From the human T2T-CHM13v2.0 reference genome, Homo sapiens: DNA of 64,000 bases. The stretch spans positions 6,464,001-6,528,000 of the forward strand of contig CP068257.2 in NCBI GenBank assembly GCA_009914755.4, read 5' to 3'. Both the position numbers and the translations under genes were made by a program. The notes beneath the pieces are model-generated. The model saw only the letters and a list, made by a program, of their open reading frames with translations, had not been told where the DNA came from and did not search any database. This document shows positions 4,822 to 28,600 of this stretch, piece by piece. Within the stretch, counting starts at the first letter, position 1. Each line of letters starts with the position of its first letter.

Positions 4822-4856
4822 CATTCCATTCCCCTCCACTCGAGGGGAATGGAATG
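4822..4856. repeat. Perfect 15-bp inverted repeat (local strand switch) in the satellite: cattccattcccctc / cactc / gaggggaatggaatg
   Basis: Seen directly at 4822-4836 and 4842-4856 with a 5-nt spacer. It is the only place in 30 kb where the C-rich (ATTCC) orientation appears on the + strand. Confidence 0.8.
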
Positions 4857-7430: not shown

Positions 7431-10400
7431 AATGGAATGGATTGGTATAGAATGGAATTTAAACTACTCGATTGGAATGGAATGGAATGGAATGGAAAGG
7501 AATGGAATGGAATGGAATAGAATTGAATGGAATCAACCCGAGTGGAATGGAATGGAATGGAATGCAATGGAATAGAATGGAATTGAATCAACCCGTGTGG
7601 AATGGAATCGATTGGAATGGAATGGAATGGAATGGAATGGAATGGAATGGAATGGAATAGAATGGAATTGAATCAACCCGAGTGAAAAGGAATGGAGTGG
7701 AATGGAATGGAAAGGAATGGAATGGAATGGAATGGAATGGAATGGAAATGAATCAACCCGAGTGGGTTTCAATGGAATGGAATGAAAGGAAGGGAATGGA
7801 GGGGAATGGAATAGAATGGAATCGAATGGAAAGGAAAGTAATGGAATCTACCCGAGTAGAATGGAATGGAATGGAATGGAATGGAATGGAATAGAATGGA
7901 ATTGAATCAACCCGAGCAGAATGGAACGGAATGGAATTGAATGGAAAGGAATGGAATGGAATGGCATAGAATGGAATTGAATCAACCGAAATGGAATGGA
8001 ATGGAATGGAATGGAGTGGAATGGAATGGAATGGAATGGAATAGAATGGAATTGAATGAACATGAGCGGAATGGAATGGAATGGAATGGAATGGAATGGA
8101 ATTGAATCAATCCGAGTGGAGTGGAATGGAATGGCATGGAATGGAATGGAATGGAATGGAATGGAGTTAAATGGAATGCAATGGAATAGAATGGAATTGA
8201 ATCAACCAGTGTGGAATGGAATGGAATGGAATGGAATGGAATGGAATGGAATGGAGAGGAATGGAATAGAATGGAACTGAATCAACCCGAGTGGAAAGGA
8301 ATGTAATGGAATGGAATTAAATGGAAGTGAATCAACCCGAGTGGAATTAAATGGAATGGAATGGAAAGGAAGAGAATGGAATGGAATCGAATGGAAAGGA
8401 AAGTAATGGAATCGACCCGAGTAGAATGGAATGGAATGGAATGGAATAGAATGGAATTGAATCAACCCGAGTGGAATTGAACGGAATGGAATAGAATGGA
8501 ATAGAATAGAATTGAATTAACCTGAGTGGAATGGAATGGAAAAGAATGGAGTGGAATGGAATGGAATGGAATGGAATAGAATGGAATTGAATCAAGCCGA
8601 GAGGAATGTAATGTAATGTAATGGAATGGAATAGAATGGATTTGAATCAACACCGAGTGGAATGGTATGGAATGGTATGGAATGGAATGGAACGGAATGT
8701 AACTGAATGGAACGGATTAGAAAGGAATTGAATCAACCCGAGTGGAATGGAATGGAATGGAATGCAATGGAATGAAAGAGACTGGAATTCATTTAGACGG
8801 AGTTTAATGGAATGGAATGGTATGGAATGGAATGGTATGGAATGGAATGGAATGGAATGGAATGGAATGGAATGGAATGGAATATAATGGTATTTAATCA
8901 ACCCGAGTGGATCGGAATGGAATGGAATGGAATGGAACAGAATGGAATCGAATCAACCCGAGAGGAATGGAATTGAATGGAATGGAATGGAATGGAATGG
9001 AATATAATGGAATTGAGTCAACCGGAGTGGAATGGAATGGAATGGAATGGAATTGAATGAAATGGAATGGACTGGTATAGAATGGAGTTGAAACTACTCG
9101 ATTGGAATAGAATGGAATGGAATGGAATAGAATTGAATGGAATCAAACCGAGTGGAATGGAATGGAATGGAATGGAATGGAATGGAATGGAATGGAATGG
9201 AATAGAGGTAAATGGAATGCAATGGAACAGAATGGAATTGAGTCAACGCGTATGGAATGGAATGGATTGGAATGGAATGGAATGGAATGGAATAGAATGG
9301 AATTGAATCAACCCGAGTGGAAAGGAATGGAATGGAATGGAATGGAATGGAACGGAAATGAATCAACCCGAGTGGAATTCATTGGAATGGAATGGAAAAG
9401 AAGGGAATGGAGTGTAATGGAATGGAATGGAATCGAATGGAAAGGAAAGTAATGGAATCTACCCGAGTAGAATGGAATGGAATGGAATAGAACGGAATTG
9501 AATCAACCCGAGCAGAATGGAATGGAACGGAATGGAGTGGAAGGGAATGGAGTGGAATGGAATGGAATGAACACGAGTGGAATGGAATGGAATGGAATGG
9601 AATGGAATGGAATGGTTTAGAATGGAATTGAGTCAATCCAGGTGGAATGGAATGGAATGGCATGGAATGGAATAGAATGGAACTGAATCAACCCGAGTGG
9701 AATGGAATGGAATGGAATGGCATGGAATGGAATGGAAGGGAATGGAATGGAATGGAATGGAATGCAATGGAATTGAATCAACCCGAGTGAAATGGAATGG
9801 AATGGAATGGAAAGCGAAGGGATGGAATGGAATGGAATGGAATGGAATCAACCCGAATGGAATGCAGTGGAATAGAATGCTATGGGGTGGAATGGAATGG
9901 AATGGATTGCAATGTAATGAAATGCAATAGAATGGAATTGAATCAACCCAAGTGGAATGGAATGGAATGCAATGGAATGGAATCGAATGCGATAGAATTG
10001 AATTGAATTAACCTGAATGGAATGGAATGGAATGGAATGCAATGGAATGGAATTGAATCAACCCGAGTGGAATGGAATGGATTGGAATGGAATGGAAGGG
10101 AATGGAATGGAATAGAAATGAACCAACCCGAGTGGAATGGAATGGAAAGGAATGGAATGTAATGGAATGCAATGGAATGCAATGGAATGGAATGGAATGG
10201 AATGGAATGGAATGGAATGGAATGGATTGGAATGTGGTGGAATGGAATAGACTGGAGTTGAATCAACCCGAGTGGAATGGAATGGAATGAAATGGAATGG
10301 AATGGAATCAACCCGAGTGGAAAGGAATGGAATGGAATACAATTCAATGGAATGGAATGGAATGGAATGGAATCAACCCGAATGGAATGGAATGGAATTG

Positions 10401-11304
10401 AATGGAATGGAATGGAATAAAGTGGAATGGAATTTAATTAACCTTAGTGGAATGCAATGGAATGGATTGGAATGGAATGGAATGGAATGGAATCAATCCC
10501 AGTGGAATGGAAAGGCATGGATTGGAATGGAATAGAATGGAATGCAATGGAATGGAATGGAATGGAATGGAATGGATTGGAATGCAATGGAATGGAATGG
10601 AATGGAATGGAATGGAATGGATTGGAATGCAATGGAATGGAATGGAATGGAATGGATTGGAATGTAATGGAATGGTGTAGAATGGAATTGAAACAACTCG
10701 ATTGGAATGCAGTGGAATGTAATGGAATGGAATGGAATGGAATGGAATGGAATGGAATGGATTGGAATGGAATAGAATGGGATTGTATCCACCCGAATGG
10801 AATGGAATTGAATGGAATGGAATGGTATGCAATGGAAAAGAATGGAATTGAATCAACCCGTCTGGAATGGCATGGAATGGAAGGGAATGGAATGGAATGG
10901 AAGGGAATGGAAAGGAATAGAATGCAATTGAATCAACTCGAATGGAATGGAATGGAATGGAATCGAATTGAATCAACCCGAGTGGAATGGAATGGAATGG
11001 AACAGAATGGAATGGAATGGAATGGAAAGGAATGGAATAGAACGGAATTGAATCAACCTGAGTGGAATGGAAAGCAATGGAATGGAATGGAGTGGAATGG
11101 AATGGAATGGAGTGGAATGGAATGGAACGGATTGGAATGGAATGGAATGGAATGGAACGGATTGGAATGGAATGGAATGGAATGGAATGTATTTGAATGG
11201 AATTGAATCAACCCGAGTGGAATGGAATGGAATAGCATGGAATGGAATGGAATAGAATGGAATGGAATGGAATGGAATGGAATGGAATGGAATGGAATGG
11301 AATG
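7431..11304 (+). repeat. HSat3 higher-order repeat, copy 1 of a near-identical ~3.9 kb tandem duplication
   Basis: Dozens of ORF translations are identical to those in copy 2 at a constant offset of 3885 bp, for example 7682..7894=11567..11779, 8056..8280=11941..12165, 9094..9366=12979..13251, 9797..10006=13682..13891, 10272..10535=14157..14420. Line-by-line comparison (e.g. 8641-8760 vs 12526-12645) is identical. The offset changes only by multiples of 5 bp (3874, 3885, 3890), i.e. pentamer-count indels. Confidence 0.85.
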
Positions 11305-14300
11305 AAATGGAATGGATTGGTATAGAATGGAATTTAAACTACTCGATTGGAATGGAATGGAATGGAATGGAAAGGAATGGAATGGAATGGAATAGAATTG
11401 AATGGAATCAACCCGAGTGGAATGGAATGGAATGGAATGGAATGGAATGCAATGGAATAGAATGGAATTGAATCAACCCGTGTGGAATGGAATCGATTGG
11501 AATGGAATGGAATGGAATGGAATGGAATGGAATGGAATGGAATAGAATGGAATTGAATCAACCCGAGTGAAAAGGAATGGAGTGGAATGGAATGGAAAGG
11601 AATGGAATGGAATGGAATGGAATGGAATGGAAATGAATCAACCCGAGTGGGTTTCAATGGAATGGAATGAAAGGAAGGGAATGGAGGGGAATGGAATAGA
11701 ATGGAATCGAATGGAAAGGAAAGTAATGGAATCTACCCGAGTAGAATGGAATGGAATGGAATGGAATGGAATGGAATAGAATGGAATTGAATCAACCCGA
11801 GCAGAATGGAACGGAATGGAATTGAATGGAAAGGAATGGAATGGAATGGCATAGAATGGAATTGAATCAACCGAAATGGAATGGAATGGAATGGAATGGA
11901 GTGGAATGGAATGGAATGGAATGGAATAGAATGGAATTGAATGAACATGAGCGGAATGGAATGGAATGGAATGGAATGGAATGGAATTGAATCAATCCGA
12001 GTGGAGTGGAATGGAATGGCATGGAATGGAATGGAATGGAATGGAATGGAGTTAAATGGAATGCAATGGAATAGAATGGAATTGAATCAACCAGTGTGGA
12101 ATGGAATGGAATGGAATGGAATGGAATGGAATGGAATGGAGAGGAATGGAATAGAATGGAACTGAATCAACCCGAGTGGAAAGGAATGTAATGGAATGGA
12201 ATTAAATGGAAGTGAATCAACCCGAGTGGAATTAAATGGAATGGAATGGAAAGGAAGAGAATGGAATGGAATCGAATGGAAAGGAAAGTAATGGAATCGA
12301 CCCGAGTAGAATGGAATGGAATGGAATGGAATAGAATGGAATTGAATCAACCCGAGTGGAATTGAACGGAATGGAATAGAATGGAATAGAATAGAATTGA
12401 ATTAACCTGAGTGGAATGGAATGGAAAAGAATGGAGTGGAATGGAATGGAATGGAATGGAATAGAATGGAATTGAATCAAGCCGAGAGGAATGTAATGTA
12501 ATGTAATGGAATGGAATAGAATGGATTTGAATCAACACCGAGTGGAATGGTATGGAATGGTATGGAATGGAATGGAACGGAATGTAACTGAATGGAACGG
12601 ATTAGAAAGGAATTGAATCAACCCGAGTGGAATGGAATGGAATGGAATGCAATGGAATGAAAGAGACTGGAATTCATTTAGACGGAGTTTAATGGAATGG
12701 AATGGTATGGAATGGAATGGTATGGAATGGAATGGAATGGAATGGAATGGAATGGAATGGAATGGAATATAATGGTATTTAATCAACCCGAGTGGATCGG
12801 AATGGAATGGAATGGAATGGAACAGAATGGAATCGAATCAACCCGAGAGGAATGGAATTGAATGGAATGGAATGGAATGGAATGGAATATAATGGAATTG
12901 AGTCAACCGGAGTGGAATGGAATGGAATGGAATGGAATTGAATGAAATGGAATGGACTGGTATAGAATGGAGTTGAAACTACTCGATTGGAATAGAATGG
13001 AATGGAATGGAATAGAATTGAATGGAATCAAACCGAGTGGAATGGAATGGAATGGAATGGAATGGAATGGAATGGAATGGAATGGAATAGAGGTAAATGG
13101 AATGCAATGGAACAGAATGGAATTGAGTCAACGCGTATGGAATGGAATGGATTGGAATGGAATGGAATGGAATGGAATAGAATGGAATTGAATCAACCCG
13201 AGTGGAAAGGAATGGAATGGAATGGAATGGAATGGAACGGAAATGAATCAACCCGAGTGGAATTCATTGGAATGGAATGGAAAAGAAGGGAATGGAGTGT
13301 AATGGAATGGAATGGAATCGAATGGAAAGGAAAGTAATGGAATCTACCCGAGTAGAATGGAATGGAATGGAATAGAACGGAATTGAATCAACCCGAGCAG
13401 AATGGAATGGAACGGAATGGAGTGGAAGGGAATGGAGTGGAATGGAATGGAATGAACACGAGTGGAATGGAATGGAATGGAATGGAATGGAATGGAATGG
13501 TTTAGAATGGAATTGAGTCAATCCAGGTGGAATGGAATGGAATGGCATGGAATGGAATAGAATGGAACTGAATCAACCCGAGTGGAATGGAATGGAATGG
13601 AATGGCATGGAATGGAATGGAAGGGAATGGAATGGAATGGAATGGAATGCAATGGAATTGAATCAACCCGAGTGAAATGGAATGGAATGGAATGGAAAGC
13701 GAAGGGATGGAATGGAATGGAATGGAATGGAATCAACCCGAATGGAATGCAGTGGAATAGAATGCTATGGGGTGGAATGGAATGGAATGGATTGCAATGT
13801 AATGAAATGCAATAGAATGGAATTGAATCAACCCAAGTGGAATGGAATGGAATGCAATGGAATGGAATCGAATGCGATAGAATTGAATTGAATTAACCTG
13901 AATGGAATGGAATGGAATGGAATGCAATGGAATGGAATTGAATCAACCCGAGTGGAATGGAATGGATTGGAATGGAATGGAAGGGAATGGAATGGAATAG
14001 AAATGAACCAACCCGAGTGGAATGGAATGGAAAGGAATGGAATGTAATGGAATGCAATGGAATGCAATGGAATGGAATGGAATGGAATGGAATGGAATGG
14101 AATGGAATGGATTGGAATGTGGTGGAATGGAATAGACTGGAGTTGAATCAACCCGAGTGGAATGGAATGGAATGAAATGGAATGGAATGGAATCAACCCG
14201 AGTGGAAAGGAATGGAATGGAATACAATTCAATGGAATGGAATGGAATGGAATGGAATCAACCCGAATGGAATGGAATGGAATTGAATGGAATGGAATGG

Positions 14301-15190
14301 AATAAAGTGGAATGGAATTTAATTAACCTTAGTGGAATGCAATGGAATGGATTGGAATGGAATGGAATGGAATGGAATCAATCCCAGTGGAATGGAAAGG
14401 CATGGATTGGAATGGAATAGAATGGAATGCAATGGAATGGAATGGAATGGAATGGAATGGATTGGAATGCAATGGAATGGAATGGAATGGAATGGAATGG
14501 AATGGATTGGAATGCAATGGAATGGAATGGAATGGAATGGATTGGAATGTAATGGAATGGTGTAGAATGGAATTGAAACAACTCGATTGGAATGCAGTGG
14601 AATGTAATGGAATGGAATGGAATGGAATGGAATGGAATGGAATGGAATGGATTGGAATGGAATAGAATGGGATTGTATCCACCCGAATGGAATGGAATTG
14701 AATGGAATGGAATGGTATGCAATGGAAAAGAATGGAATTGAATCAACCCGTCTGGAATGGCATGGAATGGAAGGGAATGGAATGGAATGGAAGGGAATGG
14801 AAAGGAATAGAATGCAATTGAATCAACTCGAATGGAATGGAATGGAATGGAATCGAATTGAATCAACCCGAGTGGAATGGAATGGAATGGAACAGAATGG
14901 AATGGAATGGAATGGAAAGGAATGGAATAGAACGGAATTGAATCAACCTGAGTGGAATGGAAAGCAATGGAATGGAATGGAGTGGAATGGAATGGAATGG
15001 AGTGGAATGGAATGGAACGGATTGGAATGGAATGGAATGGAATGGAACGGATTGGAATGGAATGGAATGGAATGGAATGTATTTGAATGGAATTGAATCA
15101 ACCCGAGTGGAATGGAATGGAATAGCATGGAATGGAATGGAATAGAATGGAATGGAATGGAATGGAATGGAATGGAATGGAATGGAATGG
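11305..15190 (+). repeat. HSat3 higher-order repeat, copy 2 of the ~3.9 kb tandem duplication
   Basis: See copy 1. The junction at 11250-11304 lies in a pure (GGAAT)n run. Copy 2 differs by small indels, e.g. a frame difference near 14640 compared with ORF 10457..11206. Confidence 0.85.
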
Positions 15191-16030
15191 AATAGACTGG
15201 AATTCATTTAAACCGAGTGTAATGGAATGGAATGGTATGGAATGGAATGGAATGGTATGGAATGGAATGGAATGGTATGGAATAGAATGGAATGGAATGG
15301 AATGGAATGGAATATAATGGTATTTAATCAACCCGAGTGGATCGGAATGGAATGGAATGGAATGGAACAGAATGGAATCGAGTCAACCCAAGAGGAACGG
15401 AATTGAATGGAATTGAATGGAATGGAAAGGAATGGAATGGAATGGAATATAATGGAAATGAGTCAACTGGAGTGGAATAGAATGGAATGGAATGGAATGG
15501 ATTGGAATGGAATGGAATGGAAAGGAATGAAATGGAATGGAGTGGTATAGAATGGAATTGAAACTACTCGATTGGAATGGAATGGAATGGAATAGACTTG
15601 AATGGAATCAACCCTAGTGGAATGGAATGGAATGGAATGGAATCAAATAGAATGGAGGTGAATGGAATGCAATGGAATAGAATGGAATTGAATCAACCCA
15701 TGTGGAATGGAATGGATTGGACTGGAATGGAACGGAATGGAACGGAATAGAATGGAATTGAATCAACCATAGTGGAAAGGAATGGAATGGAATGGAATGG
15801 AAATGAATCAACACGAGTGGAATTCATTGGAATGGAATGGAAAGGAAGGGAATTGAGTGGAATGGAATGGAATGGAGTGGAATGGAATGGAATCAAATGG
15901 AAAGGAAAGTAATGGAATCGACCCAAGTAGAATGGAATAGAATGGCATAGAATGGAATTGAATCAACCCGAGCGGAATTGAACGGAATTGAAGGGAATGG
16001 AATGGAATGGAACGGAATGGAATGGAATCA
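15191..16030 (+). repeat. Diverged partial copy of the HOR sub-unit (homologous to 8771-9500 and 7085-7470)
   Basis: Shared markers: 'gactggaattcattta[ag]a[cg]cgagt[gt]taatggaatggaatggtatgg', 'aatataatggtatttaatcaacccgagtggatcggaatgg', 'gaaactactcgattggaat', and 'gaaagtaatggaatcgacccaagtagaatgg' at 15901. There are numerous substitutions. Confidence 0.5.
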
Positions 16031-16400
16031 ACGCAAGTGGAATGGAATGGAATGGTTGGACCACAATAGATTGAAATCGAACCAACACGAGTGGAATGGA
16101 ATGGAATTGAATGGAATGCAATAGAATGGAATGGAATCCACTAGAGTGGAATGGAATGGAATGGAGTGGAGTGCAATGGAGTGTGGTGGAATGCAATGGA
16201 GTGGAGTGGAATAGAATGGAGTAGGGTGGAATTCACTGGAACGGAGTGGAATGTACTGGATTTGACTGGAATGGAGTTGAGTGGAGTGGAATGGAGTTGA
16301 CTGGAGTGGCATGGAATGGAGTGGAGTGGAGTGCAATGGAATACAGTAGACTGGAGTGGAGTGAATTGGTGTTGAATGGAAAGGAATGGAATGAAATGGA

Positions 16401-16462
16401 TACTTAGATTGTGCCACTGCACTAAAACCTGTGTGACAGTAGGGGAACCTGTCGAAAGAAAG
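16401..16462 (+). repeat. Embedded Alu-tail fragment, variant 2 (GATTGTGCCACTGCACTAAAACCTGTGTGACAG...CTGTCGAAAGAAAGG)
   Basis: Seen directly. Variant-2 copies (CAGCCTGTGTGAC, followed by GGAGTGGAATGGGA) lie at ~16406, 16748, 17695, 18186, 21098, 21842, 24118 and 24813. Confidence 0.8.
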
Positions 16463-18631
16463 GAGTGGAATGGGAAGGAGTGTAGTGTAGTGGAGTGGAG
16501 TGGAGTGGAATTGGAGATTAATATAATGGAGTGGAGTGGAATGGAATGGAGTGGAGTGGAATGGATTGCAGGGGAGTGGGGTGGAGAGCAGTGGAATGGA
16601 GTGGAGTGGAATGGAATGGAATGGAATGGAATGGAGTGGTCTGGAATGGAATGGAGTTGCGTGGAGTGGAGTTCAGTGGACTTGAATGGAATGGAATGGA
16701 ACTGAGTGAAATGGAATGGAATGGAATTGGTGCTGAGATTGTGCCACTGCGCTACAACCTGTGTGATAGAGGGAGATCCTGTCAAAAGAAAGAATTCGAA
16801 TGGGAAGAAGTGGAGTGGATTGGAGTTGAGTGGAATGGAATGGAATTGATTGGAGTGAAATGGAATGGAATGAATGGTAAAGGAATGGAATGGAGTGGAG
16901 TATGGTGGAATGGAATGGAGTGGAGCGTAGTGAAGTGCAGTTGAGTGGAATGGATTGGAGTGGAGTGAAATGCAGTGGAAAGGAGTTGAGCGCAATTTAC
17001 CGGAAAGCAGTGGAATGGAATGGGGAGGAATGGAAAGGCATGGAGTAGAATGGAGTGTAGTGGATTGGAGTGGAGTGGAATTGACTGGAGTGGACTGGAG
17101 TGCATTGGAGTTGGGTGGAATGGAATGGAATTCAATGGCCTGCAGTGGAATGGAATGCAGTGGTGTTGAGTGTAGTGGAGTGGAATGGAACAGAATGGAA
17201 TGGAATGGAAAGGAGGAGTGGAGTGGAGTGGAATTCAGTGGAGTGGATTGCAGTGGAATGGAATGGAATGGATTGGAATGGAGATGAGTGGAGTTGAAAG
17301 AAGTGGAGTGGAATGGAGTGCAGAGGAGTGGATAGGAGTGCAATGGATTGCAGTGGAATGGAATGGCATAAAGTGGAGTGGAATTTAGTGGAATGGAGTG
17401 GAATGGACTGGACTGGAATGGAATGGAATGGAGTGGAGTGGAATGGAATGGAGTGGAGTGGAATGGAATAGAGTGGAGTGGAGTGGAATGCAGTGGCGTG
17501 GAGTGGAATAGAGTGAAGAGGAGTGGATGTAGTGAAGTGAAGTGGAATGAAATGGGGTGGAGTGGAGTGGAATTGAATGGATTGGAGTGGAGTGCAAAGG
17601 AGTCGAATGGAAACGGATGCAAAGGAATGTAGTGGAATGGAGTGGATTTGACTGGAATGGAATGGAATGGAATGGAATGGAATGGAATCGCTGTTGAGAT
17701 CGTGTCACTGTGCTACAGACTGTGTGACAGAGGGAGATCCTCTGGAAAGAAAGGAGTGGAATGGGATGGTGTCGAGTGGATTGCAGTGGAGTGGAGTGAA
17801 ATGGAGTGGAATGGATTGGTGTGGAGTGTAATGGAGTGGAGTGGAGTGGACTGGAATGGAGTGGATTGGGTTGGAATGGAGTGCAGTGGAGTGGAATCAA
17901 GTGGAATGGAATGGGGTGGAGTGTGGTGGAATGGAATGGATTGGATTGGAGTGGAGTGGAGTGGAGCTTAATGTTATGGAGTGGAGTGGAATGGATTGGA
18001 ATGGACTGGAATGGAATGGATTGGAGTGGAGTGGAGAGCAGTGGAGTGGAGTGGAGTGGAATGGAATGGAATGGAGTGGCATGCAGTGGAGTGGAAGGGA
18101 GTGGAGTGGACTGGAGTGGAAAGGAGGTGAATGAAATGGAATGGAATGGAATGGAATGGAATGGAATGGAATGGAATGGGTGATGAGATTGTGCCACTGC
18201 ATCAAAACCTGTGTGACAGAGGGAGATCCTGTCAAAAGAAAGAATTGTAATCGGAAGCAGTGGAGTGGATTGGAGTTGAGTGAAACGGAATGGAATGGAG
18301 TGGAGTGGAGTGGAATGGAGTGGAGTGGAGTTGAATGGAATGTGGTGGAGTGGAATGAAGTCGAGTGGAATGGAGTGGAATGGAATGTGATGGAATGGAA
18401 TGGAATGGATTATGGTGGAGTGGAGTGGATTGAAGTGGAGTAGAGTGGATTGTAGTGGAATGAAATGGGATGGAATGGAATGCCATCGAGTGCAGTGGAG
18501 TGGAGTGGACTGGAGTGGAGGAGAGTGGAATGGAGTCGAGTGGAATAGAATGGAGTGGAACAGAATGGAATGGAATGCAATGGAATGGAATGCAAAGGAA
18601 TGGAATGCAATTAAATAGAATGGAATGGAAT

Positions 18632-18710
18632 GGTGAAATGAAATGTGAGCTGAATTGGTGCCACTGCACGCCAGCCTGGGTGACAGAGTGAGATGCTGTC
18701 GAAAGAAAGA
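18632..18710 (+). repeat. Embedded Alu-tail fragment, variant 1 (GGTGAAATGAAATGTGAGCTGA..GTGCCACTGCAC.CCAGCCTGGGTGACAGAGTGAGAT.CTGTCGAAAGAAAG)
   Basis: Seen directly. It is near-identical to the copy at 26039-26118, 7.4 kb downstream. Variant-1 copies lie at ~18966, 19492, 19858, 20218, 20406, 20612, 20828, 22450, 22773, 23217, 23400, 23601, 23832, 25390, 25660, 26060, 26378, 26856, 27228, 27385, 27797, 28168, 28647, 28995, 29400 and 30208. Confidence 0.8.
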
Positions 18711-19857
18711 AATGGAATGGAATGGAGTGGAGTGGAGTGGTGTGGAGTGGAGTGGTGTGGAGTGGAATGGAATGGGATGGACTATAATGGAATGGATTGC
18801 TGTGGATTGGAGTGGTGGAGAGTGGAATGGAGTCGAGTGGAATGGAATGGAATGGACTGGAGTGGAATGCAGTGGAATGGAATGGAAAGGAGTGGAGTGG
18901 AGTGCAGTGGAGTGGAGTGGAGTGGAATGGAATGGAATGGATTAGCGAAATGAAATGTAAGCTGAGATTATGTCACTGTACTCCAGAATGGGTGACAGAG
19001 TGACATCCTGTGGAATGTAAGGAATGGAATGGATTGGAGTGGAATGGTTTGGAATGTAGTGGAGTGGATAGGAGTGAAGTGGAGTAGAATAGAGTGGAGA
19101 GGAATGGAATGGCAGGGAGTGGATAGGAGTGGACGGGAGTGGAGTAGAATATAATGGAATGGGATGGAATCGAATGGAATGAAATGGAGGGGAGTGGAGT
19201 GTTGGGGAGAGGAGTGGAGTGGTATGGAATTGGATGGAATTGAATGTAGAGGAGTGGAGTGGAGAGGAGTGGAGTAGAGTGGATTGGTATGGAATTGGAT
19301 GGAATTGAATGTAGAGGAGTGGAGTGGAGAGGAGTGGAGTAGAGTGGAGTGGAATGGAACGAAATTGAATGAAGTGGAGCCAAGTGGAGTGGACTGGAGT
19401 GGAGTGGAATGGAATATAGTGGAATGGAAACGAATGGAATGGAAAGGAATGTAATGCAATTGAATGGAATGATAAAATGAAATATGAGTTGAGATTGTAA
19501 CACTGCACTCCAGCCATTGTCACAGAGTGAAATACTGTCGAAAGAAAGGAATGGAATGGACAGGTGTGGAATGGAATGGAATGGAGCGGAGTGGAGTGGA
19601 TTATAGTGGAATGGAGTGGAATGGAATGGGATGGAATGGGATGGAGTGGAGTGGAGTGGAGTGTAATGGAACGGTATGGTATGGTAAGGAACGGAATGGA
19701 ATGGAATGGAATGGAATGCAGTGGAGTGGAGTGGAGTTCGCAGGAGTGGAATTAAATGGGATGGAATAGAATTGAATGCATTGCAATGGAATGGAATGCA
19801 ATGGAATGAAATGCAATGGAATGCAATGGAATGGAATGTTGAATTGAAATGTGAGCT

Positions 19858-22772
19858 GAGATACTGCCACTGCACTCCAGCCTGGGTGACAGAGTGAGAT
19901 CCTCTCGAATGAGAGGAATGGAATGGAATGGAGTGAAGTGGAATGGAATGGAATGGAATGGAATGGAATGGAATGGAATGGAGTGGAGTGGAGTGGAATG
20001 GAATAGAATGGAGTGGAATGGAATGTGATGGAGTGGAAGGAATGGAGTGGAGGGGAGTGGAGTGGACGGGAGTGGAGTGGAGAGAAATGGAGTGAAATGG
20101 AATGGGATGGAATGGAATGGGGGAGGGGAGGGGAGTGGAGTGGAATTGAGTGTAGTGGGATAGAATGGAATGGAAAGGAAAGAAATACAATGGAATGGTG
20201 AAATGAAATGTGAGCTGAGATTGTGCCCCTGTATTCCAGCCATTTTTGACACAGTGATATCCCGTCGGAAGAAGGGAATGGAATGGAATGGGGTGGAATG
20301 GAATGGAATGGAATGGAATGGGGTTTAATGGAATGGAATGGAATGGAATGGAATGGAATGGAATGGAATGGAATGGAATGGAATGGAGAAATTAAATGTG
20401 AGCTAAGATTGTGCCACTGCACTCCAGTCTGGGTGACAGAGAGAGATCCATTTAGAAATAAAGGAATGGAATGGAATGTAGTAGAATGGAATGACTGGAG
20501 TGGCGTGGAGTGGAGTGGAGTGGCGTGGAGTGGAGTTGAGTGGAGTGGAGTGGAAAGGAATTTAGGGGAATGGAATGGAATGGAATGGAATGGTGAAATG
20601 AAATGTGAGCTGGGATTTTGTAATTGCACTCCATTTTGGGTGACAGAGTGAGATCCTGTCGAAAGAAAATATTGGAATGGAATGGAGTGTAGTGGAATTG
20701 AAAAGAATGGAGTGGACTGGAGTGGAGTGGAGTGGAATGGAATGGAAGGGAATGGAATGGAATGGAATGGAAGGGAAAGGAAAGGAATGGAATGGAAGGT
20801 AAGGGAATGGGGAAATGAAATGTGAGCTGACATTGTGGCACTGCACTCCAGCCTCGGTGACCGAGTGAGATCCTGTCGAAAGAAAATATTGGAATGGAAT
20901 GGAGTTCAATGTAACGGAATAGAGTAAAGTGGAGTGGAACGGAATGTGATGGAATGAAATGTAGTGGAGTGGAGTAGAGTGGAACGGAATGGAGTGGAGT
21001 GGAGTGGAATGGAGTGGAGTGCAGTGGAGTGGAGTGCAGTGGAATTCATTGGAATGGAATGCAGTGGAATGGAATGAAAAGGAATTTAACAGGTGCTGAG
21101 ATTGTGCTACTGCACTACAGCCTGTGTGACAGAGGTAGATCCTGTCGAAAAATAGGCGTGCAATGGGTTGGAGCAGAGTGGAGTGGAGTGGAATGGAGTG
21201 GAGTGGAGTGGACTGGAGTGGAGTGGAATGGAATGAAGTGGAGTGGAATGGACTGGAGTGGAATGGAATGGAATGGAGTGGAATGGAATGGAATGCAGTG
21301 GAGTGGAGTGGAACGGACTGGAGTGGAGTGGAATGGAGTGGAGTGGAGTAGAGTGGAATGGGGTGGAGAGGAGTGGAGTGGAGTGGAATGGAATGGAATG
21401 CAATGCAATGCAGTGGAGTGGAGTGGAATGGAGTGGCATGGAATGGAATGGAGTGGAGTGGAATGGAATGGATTGCAGTGGAGTGGAATGGAATGGAGTG
21501 GAGTGGAATGGACTGAAGTGAAATGGAATCGAATGGAGTGGAATGGAATGGAGTGGAGTGGAGTGGAGAGGAATGGAATGGAATGGAATGGAATGGAATG
21601 GAATGGAATGGATGGAATGCAATTATGTGGAGCGGAACACAGTGGAGAGGAGTGGAAAGGAATGGAATGGAATAGAGTGGAGTGGATTGCAGTGAAGTGG
21701 AGAAAAGTGCAATGTAGTGGAATGGAATCAGATGTAATGGAATGTAGTACACTGGAGTGGAGTGAAGTGGAACGAACAGGAATGGAACGGAATGGAACGG
21801 AACAGAATGGAACAGAACGGAACGGAATGGAATGGGTGCTGAGATTGTGCCACTGCACTACAGCCTGCATGACAGAGAGAGATATTGTAGAAAGAAAGGA
21901 GTGGAATGGGATGGGGGAAGTGGAGTTTAGTGGAGTGGAATGGAGTGGAGTTGAATGGACTGGAATGGAGTGGAGTGGAGTGGAACGGAATGCAGTGGAG
22001 TGGAATGGAGTGGAGTGGAATGGAGTAGAGTGGAGTGGAGTGGAATTCGGTGGAGTGGAATGGAGTAGAATGGAATGCAATGGAATGGAATGGAGTCGAC
22101 TGGATTGGTGTGGAGTGGAATGAAGTGGATTGAAGTAGAATTAGCGGAATGGAATGGGATGGAATGGAATGGAATGAAGGGGAGTGGAGTGGGGTGGAGT
22201 GGAGTGCAGTGGAATTGAGCGGAATGGAATGGGATGGAGTGGATGGAGTGGAATGGAGTGGAGCGCAGTAGAGTGAATAGGAATGGAATGGAGTGGAATG
22301 GAATTGAATGTAGTGGAATGTAGTGGAGTGGAGTGGAATGGAGTGGGATGGAATGGAATTGAATTGAATGGAATGGAATTGAACGGAATGCAATGGAATG
22401 CAATGGAATAGTATGCAATGCAATGGAAAGTTGACATGTAATGTGAGCTGAGATTGTGCCACTGTACTCCAGCCTCGGTGATACAGTGATATCCTGTCAA
22501 AAGAAAGGAATGGAATGCAATGGAGTGAAATGGAATGGAAGGGAAGGGAATGGAATGCAGGCGAGTGGAGTGGAGTGGAGTTGAATGGAATGGTATGGTA
22601 TGGAATGGAATGGAATGGAATGCAGTGGAGTGGAGTGGAGCTCGCAGGACTGGAATGGAATGGGATGGAATGGAATTGAATGCATTACAGTGGAATGGAA
22701 TGCAATGGAAAGGAATGAAATGACATGCAATGGAACGGAATAGAATGGAATGGAATGGTGAAATGAAATTTG
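19858..22772 (+). repeat. Copy 1 of a ~2.9-3.0 kb tandem duplication within the composite satellite
   Basis: The Alu-fragment series at 19858/20218/20406/20612/20828/21098/21842/22450 matches the series at 22773/23217/23400/23601/23832/24118/24813/25390 (offsets 2915-3020). The intervening text is homologous, e.g. ORF 20283..20651 ('...NGEIKCELRLCHCTPVWVTERDP...') vs 23091..23438 ('...NGEIKCELRLCQCPPVRITD'), and the (GGGGA)n blocks at 20119 and 23108. Confidence 0.7.
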
Positions 22773-25660
22773 AGCTGAAATACTGCCACTGCACTACAGC
22801 CTGGGTGACAGAATGAGATCCTCTCAAAAGAGAAGAATGGAATGGAATGGATTGGAATGGAATGGAATGGAATGGAATGGAATGGAGTGGAGTGGAGTGG
22901 AGTGGAGTGGAGTGGAGTGGAATGGAATAGAATGGAGTGGAATGGAATGGGATGGAGTGGAAGGAATGGAGTGGAGGGGAGTGGAGTGGAGAGAAATGGA
23001 GTGAAATGGAATGGGATGGAATGGAATGGAGTGGAGTGGAGTGGAGTTGATTGGAGTGGAGTGGAATGGAGTGGAATGCAATAGAATGGAATGGTATGGA
23101 ATGGAATGGGGGAGGGGAGGGGAGGGGAGTGGAGTGGAGTGGAATTGAGTGTAGTGGCACAGCATGGAATGGAAAGGAAAGGAATACGATGGAATGGTGA
23201 AATGAAATGTGAGCTGAGATTGTGTCCCTGTATTCCAGCCTTTTTTGACAGAGAGATATCCCATCGAAAGAAAGGAATGGAATGGAATGGGGTGGAATGG
23301 AATGGGGTGGAATGGAATGGGGTGGAATGGAATGGAATGGAATGGAATGGAATGGAATGGAATGGAATGGAATGGAATGGAGAAATTAAATGTGAGCTAA
23401 GATTGTGCCAATGCCCTCCAGTCAGGATTACAGATTGAGATCCATTTCGAAATAAAGGAATGGAATGGAATGGAGTAGAATGGAATGACTGGAGTGGCGT
23501 GGAGTGGAGTCGAGTAGCATGCAGTGGAGTTGAGTGGAGTGGAATGGAATTTCGGGGAATGGAATGGAATGGAACGGAATGGTGAAATGAAATGTGAGCT
23601 GGGATTTTGTAATTGCACTCCATTTTGGGTGACAGAGTGAGATCCTGTCAAAAGAAAATATTGAAATGGAATGGAGTGAAAATGAATGGAATAGAATGGA
23701 GTGGAGTGCAGTGGAGTGGAGTGGAGTGGAATGGAATGGAAGGGAATGGAATGGAATGGAAGGGAAGGGAAGGGAAGGGAAGGGAAGGGAAAGGAATGGA
23801 ATGGAAGGGAAGGGAATGAGGAAATGAAATGTGAGCTGACATTGTGGCACTGCACTCCAACCTGGGTGACACAGTGAGATCCTGTCGAAAGAAAATATTG
23901 GAATGCAATGGACTGCAATGTAATGGAATACAGTAAAGTGGAGTGGAAAGGAGTGGAATGGAATGTGATGGAATGAAATGGACTGGAGTGGAGTGGAGTA
24001 GAGTGGAACGGAATGGAAAGGAGTGGAGTGGAGTGGAGTGGAGTGCAGTGGAATGAGGTGCAGTGGAATTCATTGGAATGGAACGGAATGGAATGAAAAG
24101 GAATGCAATAGGTGTTGAGATTGTGCTACTGCACTACAGCCTGTGTGACAGAGGCAGATCCTGTCAAAAGATAGGCGTGGAATAGGTTGGAGTACAGTGG
24201 AGTGGAGAGGAGTGGAATGGAGTGGAGTGGACTGGAGTGGAATGGAATGGATTGGAGTGGAATGGAAAGGACTGGAGTGGAGTGGAATGGAATGAAGTGG
24301 AGTGGAGTGGAGTGGAGTGGAATGGAGTGGAGTGGAATGGAATGGAATGGAGTGGAGTGGAGTGGAGTGGAATGGAGTTGAGTGGAGTGGAATGGAGTGG
24401 CATGGAATGTAAAGGAATGGAGTGGAATGGCATGGACTGGAGTGGAGTGGAATGGAAGGGAGTGGAGTGGAATGGAATGGAATGGAGTGGAATGGAATGG
24501 AGTGGTGAGGAGTGGACTGGAGAGGAATGGAATGGAATGGAATGGCATGGCATGGCATGACATGGCATGGCATGGAATGGAATGGAATGGAATGGAATGG
24601 AATGGAATTAAGTGGAGTGGAGCAGAGTGGAGAGGAGTGGAAAGGAGTGGAATGGAATGGAGTGGAATGGAGTACAGTGAAGTGGAGAGAAGTGCAATGA
24701 AGTGGAATGGAATCGGATGTAATGGAATGTAGTACAGTGTAGTGGAGTTAAGTGGAACGAAATGGAATGGAACGGGACGGAACGGAATGGAACGGAATAG
24801 AATGGGTGCTGAGATTGTGCCACTGCACTACAGCCTGTGTGACAGAGAGAGATACTGTAGAAAGAAAGGAGTGGAATGGGATAGAGGGGAGTGGAGTTTA
24901 GAGGAGTGGAATGGAGTGGAGTGGAATGGTGTGGAATGGAGTGGAGTGGAGTGGAATTAAATGCAGTGGAGTGGAATGGAGTGCAGTGGAGTGGAGTGGA
25001 ATTCATTGGAGTGGAGTGGAGTGGAGTATAATGGAATGCAATGGAACGGAATGGAATGGAATGGAATGGAGTCGACTGGATTAGTGTGGAGTAGAGTGAA
25101 GTGGATTGAGGAGGAACGGAGCGGAATGGAATGAGATGGAATGGAATGGAATGAAGTGGAGTGGAGTGGGGTGGAGTGGAGTGCAGTGGAATGGTGTGGA
25201 ATGGAATGGGATGGAGTGGATGGAGTGGAATGGAGTGGAGCGCAGTAGAGTGAATATGAGTGGAATGGAGTGGAATGGAAACGAATGTAATGGAATGTAG
25301 TGGAGTGGAGTGGAACGGAGTGGGATGGAATGGAATTGAATGGAATGCAATGGAATACAATGCAATGCAATGGAAAGTTGACATGTAATGTGAGCTGAGA
25401 TTGTGCCACTGTACTCCAGCCTCGGTGACACAGTGATATCCTGTCAAAAGAAAGGAATGGAAATGAATGGAGTTGAATGGAATGGGATGAAAGGGAATGG
25501 AATGGAGGGGAGTGGAGTGGAGTGGAGTGGATTCGAGTGGAATGGAGTCGAATGGAATGGGATGGAGTGGAATGGAGTGGAGTGAATTGGAGTGAAATAG
25601 AGTGGAATGGAGTGGGATGGAATGGAATACAGTGGAATGGTGAAAAGAAATGTGAGGTGA
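22773..25660 (+). repeat. Copy 2 of the ~2.9-3.0 kb tandem duplication within the composite satellite
   Basis: See copy 1. Confidence 0.7.
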
Positions 25661-28600
25661 GATTGTGCCACTGCACTCCAGTCTTTGTGACCGAGTGAGA
25701 TCTTGTGGAAAAAAGGAATAGAATGGAATAAAGCGGACTGGAATGGAATTGAATGGAAGGGAGTGGAGTGGAGTCGAGTGGAATGGAGTGGAATGAAATG
25801 TGATGGAATGGAATGGCATGGATTATGGTGGAGTGGAGTGGATTGGAGTGGAGTAGAGTGGAATGGAGTGGAATGAAATGGGATGGAATGGAATGCCATT
25901 GAGTGCAGTGGAGTGGAGTGGACTGCAGTGGCGGAGAGTGGAATGGAGTCGAGTGGAATAGAATGGAGTGAAATAGAATGGAATGCAATGGAATGGAAGG
26001 CAAATGAATGGAATGCCATGGAATAGAATGGAATTGAAAGGTGAAATGAAATGTGAGCTGAATTTGTGCCACTGCACGCCAGCCTGGGTGACAGAGTGAG
26101 ATGCTGTCGAAAGAAAGAAATGGAATGGAATGGAGTGGATTGGAGCGGTGTGGAGTGGAGTGGTGTGGAGTAGAATGGAATGGGATGGACTGTAATGGAA
26201 TGGAGTGCAGTGGAGTGGAGTGGCGGAGAGTGGAATGGAGTCGAGTGGAATGGAATGGAATGGACTGGAGTGGAATGGAGTGGAACGGAATGGAAAGGAG
26301 TGGATTGGAGTGCAGTGGAGTGGAGTGGAGTGGAATGGAATGGAATGGAATGGATTAGCGAAATGAAATGTAAGCTGAGATTCTGCCACGGTACTCCAGA
26401 ATGGGTGACAGAGTGACATCCTGTCTAATGTAAGGAATGGAATTGAGTGGGGTGGAATTGAATGGAATGTAGTGGAGAGGATAGGAGTGGAGTGGAGTGG
26501 AATGGAGTTGAGAGGAATGGAATGGAAGGGAGAGGAGAGGAGTTGACGGAGTGGAGTGGAATGGAATGGGATAGAATCGAATGGAATGAAATTGAGGGGA
26601 GTGGAGTGGAGTGTTGGGGAGAGGAGTGGAGTGGTGTGGAAATGGATGGAATTGAATGTAGTGGAGTGGAGTGGAGTGGGATGGAGAGGAGTGGAGTAGA
26701 GTGGAGTGGAAAGGAACAAAATTGAATGGAGTGGAGCCGAGTGGAGTGGAGTGGAGTGCAGTGGAGTAGAATGGAATACAGTGGAATGGAAATGAATGGA
26801 ATGGAAAGGAATGTAACGGAATAGAATGGAATGATGAAATGAAATATGAGCTGAGATTGTAACACTGCACTCCAGCCAGTGTGACAGAGTGAAATACTGT
26901 CAAAAGAAAGGAATGGAATGGACAGGTGTGGAATGGAATGGAATGGAATGGAGTGGAGTGGAGTGGATTATAGTGGAATGGAGTGGAATGGAATGGGATG
27001 GAGTGGAGTGGAGTGGAGGGGAGTTGAACGGAACGGTATGGAATGGAATGGAATGGAATGGAATGGAATGGAATGCAGTGGATTGGAGTGGAGTTTGCAG
27101 GAGTGCAATGGAATGGGATGGAATGAATTGAATGCATTGCAATGGAATGGAAAGCAATGGAATGCAATGGAAAGGAATGCAATGGAATGGAATGGAATGC
27201 AATGGAATGGAATGGAGAAATGAAATGTGAGCTGACATACTGCCACTACACTCCAGCCTGGGTGACAGAGTGAGATCCTCTCGAAAGAGAGTTATGGAAT
27301 GGAATGGAGTGAAATGGAATGGAATGGAATGGAATGGAATGGAATGGAATGGAATGGAATGGAATAGTGAAATGAAATGTGACCTGAGATTCTGCCACTG
27401 CACTCCAGACTGTGTGACAGAGTGAGATCCTGTCGAATGTAAGGAATGGAATGGAATAGAGTGGAATGGAATGGAATGGAATGGAATGGAATGGAACGGA
27501 ATGGAATGGAGAGGAGAGGAGCGGAGCGGAGTGGAGTGGAATTGAATGGAATGGGACGGAATTGAATGGAATGAAGTGGAGGGTAGTGGAATGGAGAGAA
27601 GAAACGAGGAGTGGAAATGAATGGTATTGGATAGAATGGAATGGAGTTGAGTGTATTGGGGTGAAGAGGAGTGGAATAGAGTGGAATGGAATGGAATGGA
27701 GCGGAGTGGAGTAGAGTGGATTGTGGTGGAATGTAATGGAATAGAATGGAATGGAAAGGAAAGGAATATAATAGAATGGAATGATGAAATGAAATATGAG
27801 CTGAGATTGTGCCACTGCACTACAGCCAGGATGACACAGTGAGATCCTGTTGAAGGAAAGGAACGGAATGGAAGGGAGTGGAATGGAATGGAATGGAATG
27901 GAATGGAATGGAGTGGAGTGGAGTGGCATGCAGTCGAATGGAGTGCAGTATCCTGGAATCAAATGGGATGGAATGGAATGAAATGGAGTAGAGGGGAGTG
28001 GAGTGGAGTGGAATGGAATTGAAAGGAATGGAATGGAGTGCAATGGAGTGGAATGGATTGGAGTGCATAGGAGTGGAATGGAATGGAATGGAATGGAATT
28101 TAAAGGAACATAATGGAATGGAACGCAATGGAATGTAATGCAATGGAATGGAATGTGAAATGAAATGTGAGCTGAGAAAGTGTCACTGAACCCTGGGCTG
28201 GGTGACAGAGTGAGACCTTGTCGAAAGAAAGGAATGGAATTGAAAGGAGTTGAAAGGAATGGAATGGAGTGGAGTGGAGTGGAGCTGAGTGGAATGCACT
28301 GGATTTGACTGGAGTCGAGTGGAATGGAGTGGAATGGAATGCGGTGGAGTGGAATGTAAAGGAGTGGAGAGAGGTGGTGTGGAGAGGAGTGGAGTGGAAT
28401 TGAGTGGAATTCAATGGGATGGAATGGAATGGAGTGGAGTGAAATGGAGTGGAGTGGAGTGGAATAGAGTGCAATGGAATGGAATGGAATTGAGGGTAAT
28501 GGAATTGAGTGCAGAGGAGTGCATTGGAGTGGAGTGGAATGCAGTTGAATGGGAAGGGATGCAATGGAATGGAAGGGAACGGAATGGAACAGAACGGAAC

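What the first reader, a model, noticed from the sequence alone, without database searches (positions are those of the whole stretch)
18630..27300. Higher-order structure in the Alu-containing satellite: ~2.9 kb tandem duplication plus ~7.4 kb-spaced near-identical segments
Segment 19858-22772 is repeated at 22773-25660. The same ordered series of eight Alu-tail fragments and the intervening text recur, including a (GGGGA)n block that differs by one unit between copies.

Separately, 18630-19920 is nearly identical to 26040-27290 (offset ~7.41 kb). This includes the Alu-fragment triplet at 18650/18966/19492/19858 vs 26060/26378/26856/27228, and ORFs 18693..18953 ('[30 protein letters not shown]...') vs 26101..26358. 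Downstream of 27290 the copies diverge.

This composite satellite therefore has its own HOR hierarchy, independent of the neighbouring canonical HSat3 HOR.
Basis: seen in the sequence. Interest (0 to 1): 0.55.

Follow-up and report, generated by a model that had tools for sequence, protein, structure and literature searches.

The report
Old nested duplications in Alu-bearing HSat3
They are old, diverged two-copy duplications inside a 14-kb fragment of a known kind of primate pericentromeric satellite (HSat3 pentamers mixed with Alu-tail fragments), not an active higher-order repeat array, so the finding is ordinary.

Summary
Window 16141-30496 is a GGAAT/GGAGT pentamer satellite carrying 35 same-strand ~65-bp Alu 3'-tail fragments. 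Segment ~19664-22582 is repeated at ~22583-25530, with 91% identity in aligned columns and 84% counting indels. Segment 18347-19987 is repeated at 25760-27363, at 94% and 87%. The background between non-homologous stretches is 77-83% and 67-72%. All 8 and 4 Alu tails pair as mutual best matches in order, and the (GGGGA)3 versus (GGGGA)4 difference is real.

"Nearly identical" is overstated, and each repeat has only two copies.

The two spacings are not independent: 7.4 kb = 2.9 kb + 4.45 kb. The 2.9-kb unit looks like a ~4.4-kb unit [x-A-J-B] that lost about 1.5 kb between two (GGAGT)4 tracts. More than 100 metagenome contigs, probably human contamination, carry paralogues of this satellite. 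Several show B→x→A→B and A→B adjacency.

The window copies are as far from each other as from those paralogues. This points to an old, non-homogenised relic cut off at both ends.

HSat3 arrays mixed with Alu fragments, and multi-kb "nested tandem repeats" in HSat3, are already described in the T2T papers. The ORFs are pentamer artefacts. Interest is low.

The parts
1..16140 (+). Canonical HSat3 block. It has 101 GGAAT and 4 GGAGT per kb, 64 CAACCCGA motifs and no Alu tails. This is context, not part of the composite satellite.
   Evidence: the HSat3B2 24-mer from Altemose 2014 matches 26 times at 1 mismatch, and no subfamily 24-mer matches exactly
16141..18346 (+). Segment D: the start of the composite GGAAT/GGAGT satellite. 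It carries four 'type-2' Alu tails (16390, 16720, 17681, 18170) and an old internal duplication, 16491-16869 vs 17942-18319 (85.5%, offset 1451).
   Evidence: paralogue contigs L021/L005 continue as composite satellite upstream of the homologue of 16141, so the left edge is a breakpoint
18347..19663 (+). Segment A, copy 1 of the 7.4-kb-spaced pair. Alu tails at 18637, 18949 and 19476.
19664..19987 (+). Segment J1: the end of A and start of B, with the Alu tail at 19843 ('GATACTGCC...CCTCTC' variant). It is present three times (J1, J2, J3).
19988..22582 (+). Segment B1: body of the first 2.9-kb copy, with Alu tails at 20202, 20390, 20597, 20814, 21083, 21826 and 22435, and (GGGGA)3 at 20120.
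22583..22906 (+). Segment J2. The B1/J2 junction lies in a (GGAGT)4 tract at ~22560-22582. The same tract occurs at the B2 end (25507-25529) and inside A and A' (19643-19663, 27005-27025).
22907..25530 (+). Segment B2: body of the second 2.9-kb copy, with Alu tails at 23201, 23384, 23586, 23823, 24102, 24796 and 25382, and (GGGGA)4 at 23109.
25531..25755 (+). Segment x: a linker with the Alu tail at 25644. It lies between the B end and A in the window and in paralogue contigs L046, L077, L047 and L085.
25756..27025 (+). Segment A', copy 2 of the 7.4-kb-spaced pair. Alu tails at 26045, 26362 and 26838.
27026..27363 (+). Segment J3, with the Alu tail at 27219. Homology to J1/B1 and J2/B2 ends here.
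27364..30496 (+). Segment C: the rest of the composite satellite, with seven further Alu tails and a local 152-bp duplication at 27141-27510. It is colinear at 84-87% with paralogue contigs L031/L080.
30497..30728 (+). 5'-truncated S-type Alu (consensus positions ~58-288) directly abutting the satellite. It marks the right-hand breakpoint of the block.

Best explanation
The region is a 14.4-kb relic fragment of an old, multi-locus composite satellite derived from HSat3.

1. One Alu, with its CpGs already decayed to TpG, became embedded in a (GGAAT)n array. It was cut down to its last ~65 bp plus an AAAGAAAG tail.
2. That fragment, with flanking pentamers, was amplified into units of about 150-950 bp.
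3. Many pentamers changed from GGAAT to GGAGT, and two tail subtypes arose.
4. A multi-kb nested unit of roughly 4.4 kb then formed, in the order x-A-J-B, and was amplified.
5. In the window there are three successive such units. Unit 1 is A-J1-B1, preceded by D instead of x. Unit 2 is J2-B2, which has lost x and most of A (about 1.5 kb), probably by unequal crossing-over or slippage between two (GGAGT)4 tracts. Unit 3 is x-A'-J3, after which the sequence passes into a different part of the family (C).

This accounts for both the 2.9-kb 'tandem duplication' and the 7.4-kb spacing (2.9 + 4.45 kb).

The block was later cut at both ends and has since decayed without homogenisation. It has no coding or structured-RNA function.

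What is shown: the homologies, their limits, the junction sequence, the single origin of the Alu tails, and the existence and adjacency pattern of paralogues. What is inferred: the order of events, the direction (deletion rather than insertion), and unequal exchange as the mechanism.
For: - Colinear homology far above background, with sharp limits.
- 18 of 24 indels in the B1/B2 alignment and 11 of 13 in the extended A/A' alignment are multiples of 5 bp, as expected from pentamer slippage.
- The B1->J2 switch point lies in a (GGAGT)4 tract shared by the B end and the interior of A.
- The offsets add up: 2904-2919 + 4453 = 7357-7372, against an observed 7347-7376.
- All 35 Alu tails are on the same strand. 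Most share one 5' junction, although eight type-2 tails replace the GAAATGAAATGTGAGC lead-in with GGAATGGGTGCTGAGAT. TpG is the commonest state at every former CpG (22-33 of 35 copies) and CpA is almost absent (1 copy at one site), so the tails have one origin.
- The junction 20-mer finds at least 120 metagenome contigs, of which 115 are pentamer satellite.
- L046 and L077, from independent assemblies, read B->x->A->J->B. L027, L005 and L021 read A->J->B. L047 reads B-end->x->A. None reads B->J directly.
- Window copies are 88-91% alike, and 89-94% like the paralogues. The paralogues are 87-100% alike among themselves, mostly 92-100%.
- Paralogues continue as satellite past both edges of the window block.
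- Literature: HSat3 often includes TE fragments in its units and forms multi-kb nested tandem repeats (10.1101/2021.07.12.452052). HSat3 blocks intermingled with Alu fragments occur on chrY and the acrocentrics, without local homogenisation (10.1101/2022.12.01.518724).
Against: - No single sequence shows two or more complete tandem ~4.4-kb units. L046 covers only about 1.2 units, and its self-match at offset ~4300 is short and lies in an internally repetitive stretch.
- Short-read metagenome contigs of satellites can be chimeric. L044 and L094 clearly are.
- In the window, A is preceded by D, not by B-x, and A' is followed by C, not by B. The window alone therefore never shows a full canonical unit.
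- Deletion cannot be told from insertion on the junction sequence alone.
- The species and chromosome of the window, and the origin of the contigs, were not established.
Confidence: 0.6

Rival explanations
1. Two unrelated local events in a non-periodic old satellite: a private tandem duplication of a 2.9-kb piece (B), and separately a dispersed or segmental copy of the 1.6-kb piece A placed after it. No ancestral ~4.4-kb periodic unit existed.
For: Only two copies of each piece lie in the window. No contig spans two full units. The contigs may be chimeric.
Against: The third copy of J (27026-27363) sits exactly where a periodic A-J-B unit predicts, and the offsets add up. Several independent contigs place A between two B segments, with the same x linker. 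B1 is not closer to B2 (88-91%) than to B copies elsewhere (89-94%), which does not fit a private recent duplication.
Confidence: 0.22
2. One reading: the composite satellite is an organised HOR array with its own hierarchy of 2.9-kb and 7.4-kb periods.
For: Off-diagonal lines occur at both spacings. The ordered series of Alu tails recurs.
Against: There are two copies only, and neither offset has a third. Identity is 84-87% with indels, and exact runs are <=88 bp. The copies are not homogenised relative to paralogues. The sub-units differ widely in length. The 7.4-kb spacing is the sum of a 2.9-kb and a 4.45-kb step.
Confidence: 0.1
3. Assembly artefact: a false duplication or a collapsed and expanded repeat.
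For: Satellites are prone to misassembly. The adjacent canonical HSat3 block does contain a perfect 3.9-kb duplicate.
Against: The copies in the finding differ at 6-12% of aligned sites and by dozens of indels. False duplications are near-identical. Independent contigs reproduce the same adjacencies.
Confidence: 0.03

Closest known systems
HSat3 arrays intermingled with Alu fragments on chrY and the acrocentric chromosomes (T2T-Y paper, 10.1101/2022.12.01.518724)
   Same: Pentameric HSat3-type satellite with Alu fragments as part of the array. It is a multi-locus family with little or no local homogenisation (one search compared).
   Different: That paper reports no clustering of the Alu fragments by subgroup or chromosome. 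Here the fragments within one locus pair up in strict colinear order (0.90-0.99), showing old multi-kb duplications. Whether this window is one of the loci analysed there could not be checked.
Nested tandem repeats (NTRs) of HSat2/HSat3, for example the 3.6-kb DYZ1, 1.77-kb chr1 HSat2 and 1.37-kb pTRS-47 units (PMC4022460; 10.1101/2021.07.12.452052)
   Same: Multi-kb repeat units built from diverged pentamers, produced by unequal exchange. The periodicity varies locally within arrays.
   Different: Those arrays hold many, mostly homogeneous copies. Here there are two or three diverged copies, one of them with a 1.5-kb deletion, in a 14-kb relic.
HSat1B / DYZ2 composite satellite (2.5-kb unit containing an ancient AluY piece)
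   Same: An Alu fragment was captured into a satellite repeat unit and amplified with it.
   Different: HSat1B is AT-rich, not pentameric, and has one Alu piece per 2.5-kb unit. Here a ~65-bp tail recurs every 150-960 bp in a G-rich pentamer array. The T2T-Y authors conclude the two had independent seeding events.
ACTCC (=GGAGT) and AATGGAATGGAGTGG pericentromeric simple satellites (PMC11305138)
   Same: The composite block has 40 GGAGT and 55 GGAAT per kb. That paper places tandem ACTCC in the centromeric regions of chr13, 14, 15, 21 and 22, and regards it as nested in HSat3.
   Different: That work counts short tandem k-mers in reads. It does not describe Alu tails or multi-kb structure.
Diverged flanking layers of alpha-satellite arrays (layered expansion model)
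   Same: Older, non-homogenised copies sit at the edge of, or apart from, more homogeneous arrays of the same family.
   Different: This is a different satellite family, and the analogy is drawn by inference only.

Membership tests
HSat3 (human satellite 3) | Tandem array derived from the pentamer GGAAT/CATTC | tested here: met
   TRF reports period 5 over 15003-30198 with consensus TGGAA. The composite block has 55 GGAAT plus 40 GGAGT per kb.
HSat3 (human satellite 3) | Assignment to one of the 11 described subfamilies through subfamily-specific 24-mers (Altemose 2014, Table 1) | tested here: not met
   No exact match to any of the 14 published most-common 24-mers. At 1 mismatch the composite block has a single hit (HSat3A4), and the canonical block has 26 hits to HSat3B2. 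Only one 24-mer per subfamily was available, so this is a weak test.
HSat3 (human satellite 3) | Pericentromeric, acrocentric or Yq location in a hominoid genome | not testable with these tools
   No primate genome could be searched. Alu content shows the sequence is primate.
HSat3-Alu fragment arrays (T2T-Y paper) | [quoted passage not shown] | tested here: met
   35 Alu 3'-tail fragments lie in 14.4 kb, all on the + strand.
HSat3-Alu fragment arrays (T2T-Y paper) | The fragments are AluY-derived and cluster with those of chrY and the acrocentrics | tested here: inconclusive
   The tail consensus matches the AluY 3' end at 56 of 65 positions, and most differences lie at CpG sites or in the final bases and A-tail. 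65 bp cannot separate AluS from AluY. No reference set of those fragments was available.
Higher-order repeat (HOR) array in the alpha-satellite sense | Unit made of a discrete number of monomers of similar length | tested here: not met
   Alu-tail-delimited sub-units range from 152 to 961 bp.
Higher-order repeat (HOR) array in the alpha-satellite sense | Many tandem copies of the multimer | tested here: not met
   Two copies at each spacing, and no third at +/-2.9 or +/-7.4 kb.
Higher-order repeat (HOR) array in the alpha-satellite sense | Copies of the multimer much more alike (typically >95%) than the sub-units within it | tested here: not met
   Copies are 91-94% alike in aligned columns and 84-87% with indels. 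The background is 77-83% and 67-72%.
Nested tandem repeat (NTR) of HSat2,3 | Multi-kb unit of irregular internal structure, repeated head to tail | tested here: met
   J-B units of 2.92 and 2.95 kb lie directly head to tail, but with two copies only. The ~4.4-kb x-A-J-B unit is inferred from the J2-J3 offset of 4453 and from contigs L046/L077.
Protein-coding gene (the quoted ORFs) | ORFs exceptional for the region, with a recognisable protein family | tested here: not met
   69 ORFs of >=80 aa lie on both strands in 14 kb. Only sub-threshold low-complexity Pfam hits were found, and none for the two quoted ORFs. Exact products are not on record.

The most novel reading that the evidence does not exclude
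The Alu-tail/GGAGT composite could be a distinct HSat3-derived satellite subfamily that is not separately classified. It would have its own ~4.4-kb nested unit (x-A-J-B) present at several loci. The window block would then be an early, non-homogenised offshoot preserving the ancestral arrangement, and useful as an outgroup for dating the spread of HSat3-Alu arrays among the acrocentrics and chrY.
Probability: 0.15. Interest if true: 0.3.

Novelty: new member of a known kind. Interest (0 to 1): 0.15.

Why it matters
It matters little beyond annotation. It shows that at least one HSat3-Alu block keeps clear traces of old multi-kb duplications, with Alu tails pairing in order. This adds a small qualification to the published statement that HSat3-Alu fragments show no local homogenisation. 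The Alu tails are convenient position markers for reconstructing unequal-exchange history in a satellite that is otherwise almost featureless. For a genome scan, the practical lesson is that such off-diagonal lines in pentamer satellites are expected, and that the ORFs inside them are artefacts.

Tried and rejected
- **Coding potential.** The quoted ORFs are not genes. The pentamer has no stop codon in any + frame, and ORFs are everywhere on both strands. Pfam gives nothing above cut-off. Exact-product look-ups found nothing.
- **Structured RNA.** Rfam at gathering threshold gave 0 hits in the whole window.
- **Subfamily assignment.** The published 24-mers gave no exact hits.
- **The boundary Alu (30497-30728) as parent of the Alu tails.** It shares GAGAT and the loss of the final TC, but overall it matches the tail consensus no better (53 of 65) than unrelated Alus in the window (50-56). 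I dropped this idea as untestable on 65 bp.
- **Segment C (27364-30496) as a decayed third copy of B.** The alignment score is only marginally above background (1302 vs 1102-1229), and the Alu tails do not pair in order. Not supported.
- **Segment x also present upstream of A (18120-18346).** Not supported.
- **Genome-contig scan.** The single hit is a chance match in a bacterial MAG.
- **Molecular dating.** I did not attempt it. The mean tail divergence of 21% is too high for the age of Alu at neutral rates, so a clock is unreliable here.
- **Same locus among the contigs.** None was found. Only ~200-bp perfect patches occur, inside mosaic contigs.
Full report
**What the window is**

The window falls into three parts.
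- Bases 1-16140 are canonical HSat3. This block has 101 GGAAT per kb, almost no GGAGT, and 64 copies of the CAACCCGA motif.
- Bases 16141-30496 are a G-richer satellite (GC 0.46-0.48). It has 55 GGAAT and 40 GGAGT per kb and no CAACCCGA.
- From 30497 the sequence is AT-rich, non-satellite DNA with ordinary Alus.

The middle block carries 35 copies of an Alu 3'-end fragment of ~65 bp (consensus positions ~224-288) followed by AAAGAAAG. All are on the + strand, spaced 152-961 bp apart. Most share the same 5' junction (GGTGAAATGAAATG|TGAGCTGAGAT); eight type-2 tails carry a different lead-in. At every former CpG, 22-33 of the 35 copies read TG and CA is almost absent. The tails therefore descend from one already-decayed, truncated Alu that was amplified together with its flanking pentamers. 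Two tail subtypes exist. Eight 'type-2' tails lie at 16390, 16720, 17681, 18170, 21083, 21826, 24102 and 24796.

**Checking the observation**

K-mer offsets within 16141-30496 peak at 2989-2994 and 7408-7413. Self-BLAST gives the following:
- 19941-22398 vs 22930-25375 (2511 columns, 2313 bits)
- 18347-19264 vs 25760-26676 (91.6%)
- 19251-19987 vs 26598-27363 (87.0%)
- unrelated hits score <=320 bits

It gives 93.6% (85.7%) for the 7.4-kb pair. The same aligner on non-homologous stretches of the same satellite gives 77-83% (67-72%), at about half the score.

The Alu tails give an independent test. All 8 pairs of the 2.9-kb repeat and all 4 pairs of the 7.4-kb repeat are mutual best matches in the right order, at 0.90-0.99. 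The mean over all tail pairs is 0.786. The (GGGGA)3 versus (GGGGA)4 difference is present at 20120 and 23109. The two ORFs exist as quoted.

- The 7.4-kb pair runs from 18347/25760 to 19987/27363.
- Homology of the second 2.9-kb copy stops at ~25530.
- "Nearly identical" is an overstatement. There are dozens of indels, mostly multiples of 5 bp, and the longest exact runs are only 74-88 bp.

**Anatomy**

I label the pieces as follows:

| Label | Coordinates |
|---|---|
| D | 16141-18346 |
| A | 18347-19663 |
| J1 | 19664-19987 |
| B1 | 19988-22582 |
| J2 | 22583-22906 |
| B2 | 22907-25530 |
| x | 25531-25755 |
| A' | 25756-27025 |
| J3 | 27026-27363 |
| C | 27364-30496 |

The ~320-bp piece J, with a distinctive Alu tail, is present three times. 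J1 to J2 is 2.90-2.92 kb, J2 to J3 is 4.45 kb, and J1 to J3 is 7.35-7.38 kb.

At the B1/J2 junction the sequence follows the B2 end up to a (GGAGT)4 tract (~22560-22582). From that tract on it follows the interior of A and A'. Relative to B2-x-A'-J3, the junction lacks about 1.48 kb (25530-27005), bounded by two (GGAGT)4 tracts. Neither spacing has a third copy. The expected positions hold non-homologous satellite or lie outside the block.

**Related sequences elsewhere**

The junction 20-mer GTGAAATGAAATGTGAGCTG occurs 7 times in the window. It found one chance hit in prokaryotic genomes. Of these, 115 are pentamer satellite. I take them to be host, probably human, contamination. The T2T-Y paper notes that HSat3 is a common contaminant of databases.

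None of the contigs is the window locus. The best matches are 88-91% over 1-2 kb. They do reproduce the same adjacencies:
- L046 and L077, from different assemblies, read B(late)->x->A->J->B(early).
- L027, L005 and L021 read A->J->B.
- L047 reads B-end->x->A.
- L021, L005, L056 and L121 read D->A.
- No contig reads B->J directly.

This suggests a canonical nested unit x-A-J-B of about 4.4 kb, of which the window's middle unit is a deletion variant.

In multiple alignments the window's A and A' are 90.9% alike, and 89-92% like the contig copies. B1 and B2 are 88-91% alike, and 89-94% like the contig copies. The contig copies are 87-100% alike among themselves, mostly 92-100%. The window's copies are therefore old and have not been homogenised with each other.

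The paralogues also run on as composite satellite beyond the homologues of 16141 and of 30498. Both edges of the window's block are therefore breakpoints. The left edge abuts canonical HSat3. The right edge abuts an Alu cut at consensus position ~58.

There are caveats. Short-read contigs of satellites can be chimeric; L044 and L094 are mosaics with ~200-bp perfect patches. No contig spans two complete units.

**Most likely history**

The steps below are partly shown and partly inferred.
- A single decayed Alu tail was captured in (GGAAT)n and amplified. The single origin is shown.
- Sub-units diversified, including GGAAT->GGAGT changes. This is shown as a present state.
- A ~4.4-kb nested unit formed and spread to several loci. 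This is inferred from the adjacencies.
- Unequal crossing-over or slippage between (GGAGT)4 tracts removed x and most of A from one unit. The junction is shown; the direction and mechanism are inferred.
- The block was truncated at both ends (shown) and then decayed in isolation (inferred from the distances).

I give this explanation 0.6. The rivals are:
- two unrelated local duplications (0.22)
- a true HOR array with 2.9- and 7.4-kb periods (0.10)
- an assembly artefact (0.03), which the 6-12% divergence between copies argues against

**No other function**

Rfam finds nothing in the window. ORFs of >=80 aa are ubiquitous on both strands, 69 of them in 14 kb, because the pentamer lacks stop codons. 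Pfam gives only sub-threshold low-complexity hits, and none for the two quoted ORFs.

**Comparison with what is known**

Altemose et al. (10.1101/2021.07.12.452052) state that HSat3 often includes fragments of old transposable elements in its repeating units. They call the multi-kb units of HSat2,3 nested tandem repeats, to set them apart from HORs, and note that periodicity varies locally.

The T2T-Y paper (10.1101/2022.12.01.518724) describes HSat3 blocks intermingled with Alu fragments on chrY and the acrocentrics. It reports no evidence of local homogenisation of those fragments.

PMC11305138 places tandem ACTCC (=GGAGT) in the centromeric regions of chr13, 14, 15, 21 and 22.

The window's block fits this known kind. 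It fails the tests for an HOR array: copy number, homogeneity and uniform monomers. It could not be assigned to a published HSat3 subfamily with the single 24-mer available per subfamily. The one small addition is that, within this locus, the Alu tails do pair up in colinear order, recording old multi-kb duplications.

**Verdict**

This is a new member of a known kind, of low interest (0.15). The decisive checks need complete human and ape assemblies, which these tools do not offer.

Noticed in passing
window 7543-11303 and 11428-15193: In the canonical HSat3 block a ~3.8-kb stretch is repeated at offset 3885/3890. Identity is 100% apart from one 5-bp indel (exact runs of 3219 and 583 bp). Outside that stretch, identity at the same offset is background (0.67-0.77). 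This is either a very recent tandem duplication or an assembly artefact. It is the only basis for the 'neighbouring HSat3 HOR'.
   Followed up: partly
window 30490-30728: The satellite ends abruptly (…GGAGTGGAGTGGA|TCACTTGAGGTCAGGAG…) against an S-type Alu truncated at consensus position ~58, in the same orientation as the Alu tails. Its A-tail contains AAAGAAAGAAAG. Three paralogue contigs (L068, L016, L054) continue into another satellite unit at this point, so this is a rearrangement breakpoint. Descent of the tails from this Alu could not be shown.
   Followed up: partly
window 16089-16165: This is the left junction between canonical HSat3 and the composite satellite. Paralogue contigs L021/L005 have composite satellite, not canonical HSat3, upstream of the homologous point, plus a 220-bp local duplication there.
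   Followed up: partly
window 16491-16869 vs 17942-18319: A further old duplication inside segment D (85.5% identity, offset 1451). Relative to contigs L021, L005, L056 and L121, the window has about 1 kb extra between the homologues of 17131 and 18145.
   Followed up: partly
window 27141-27510: A local 152-bp tandem duplication (2.4 copies, 88%) creates the closely spaced Alu tails at 27219 and 27371, just where homology to B ends.
   Followed up: no
window 16390-30286 (all 35 Alu tails): Every former CpG of the Alu tail reads TpG in the consensus, and CpA is almost absent (one copy at one site). This fits fixation before amplification. It also matches the strong G-over-C skew of this strand (GC skew ~0.75), so a strand-biased mutation process is not excluded.
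   Followed up: no
loci L044 (q364-567) and L094 (q1-234): These metagenome contigs hold ~200-bp patches that are 99-100% identical to the window (26151-26354 and 20990-21223), inside otherwise 60-90% matches. They are mosaic assemblies. The patches hint that reads from this very locus are present in those samples, and so that the window comes from the same host species.
   Followed up: partly
window 21176-21612 and 24196-24670: A GGAGT-rich stretch after the type-2 Alu tail has its own short internal periodicities (self-matches at offsets 40, 60, 105, 120, 140, 160 and 175 bp, 82-84%). It is the part most often hit at background level by unrelated contigs.
   Followed up: no
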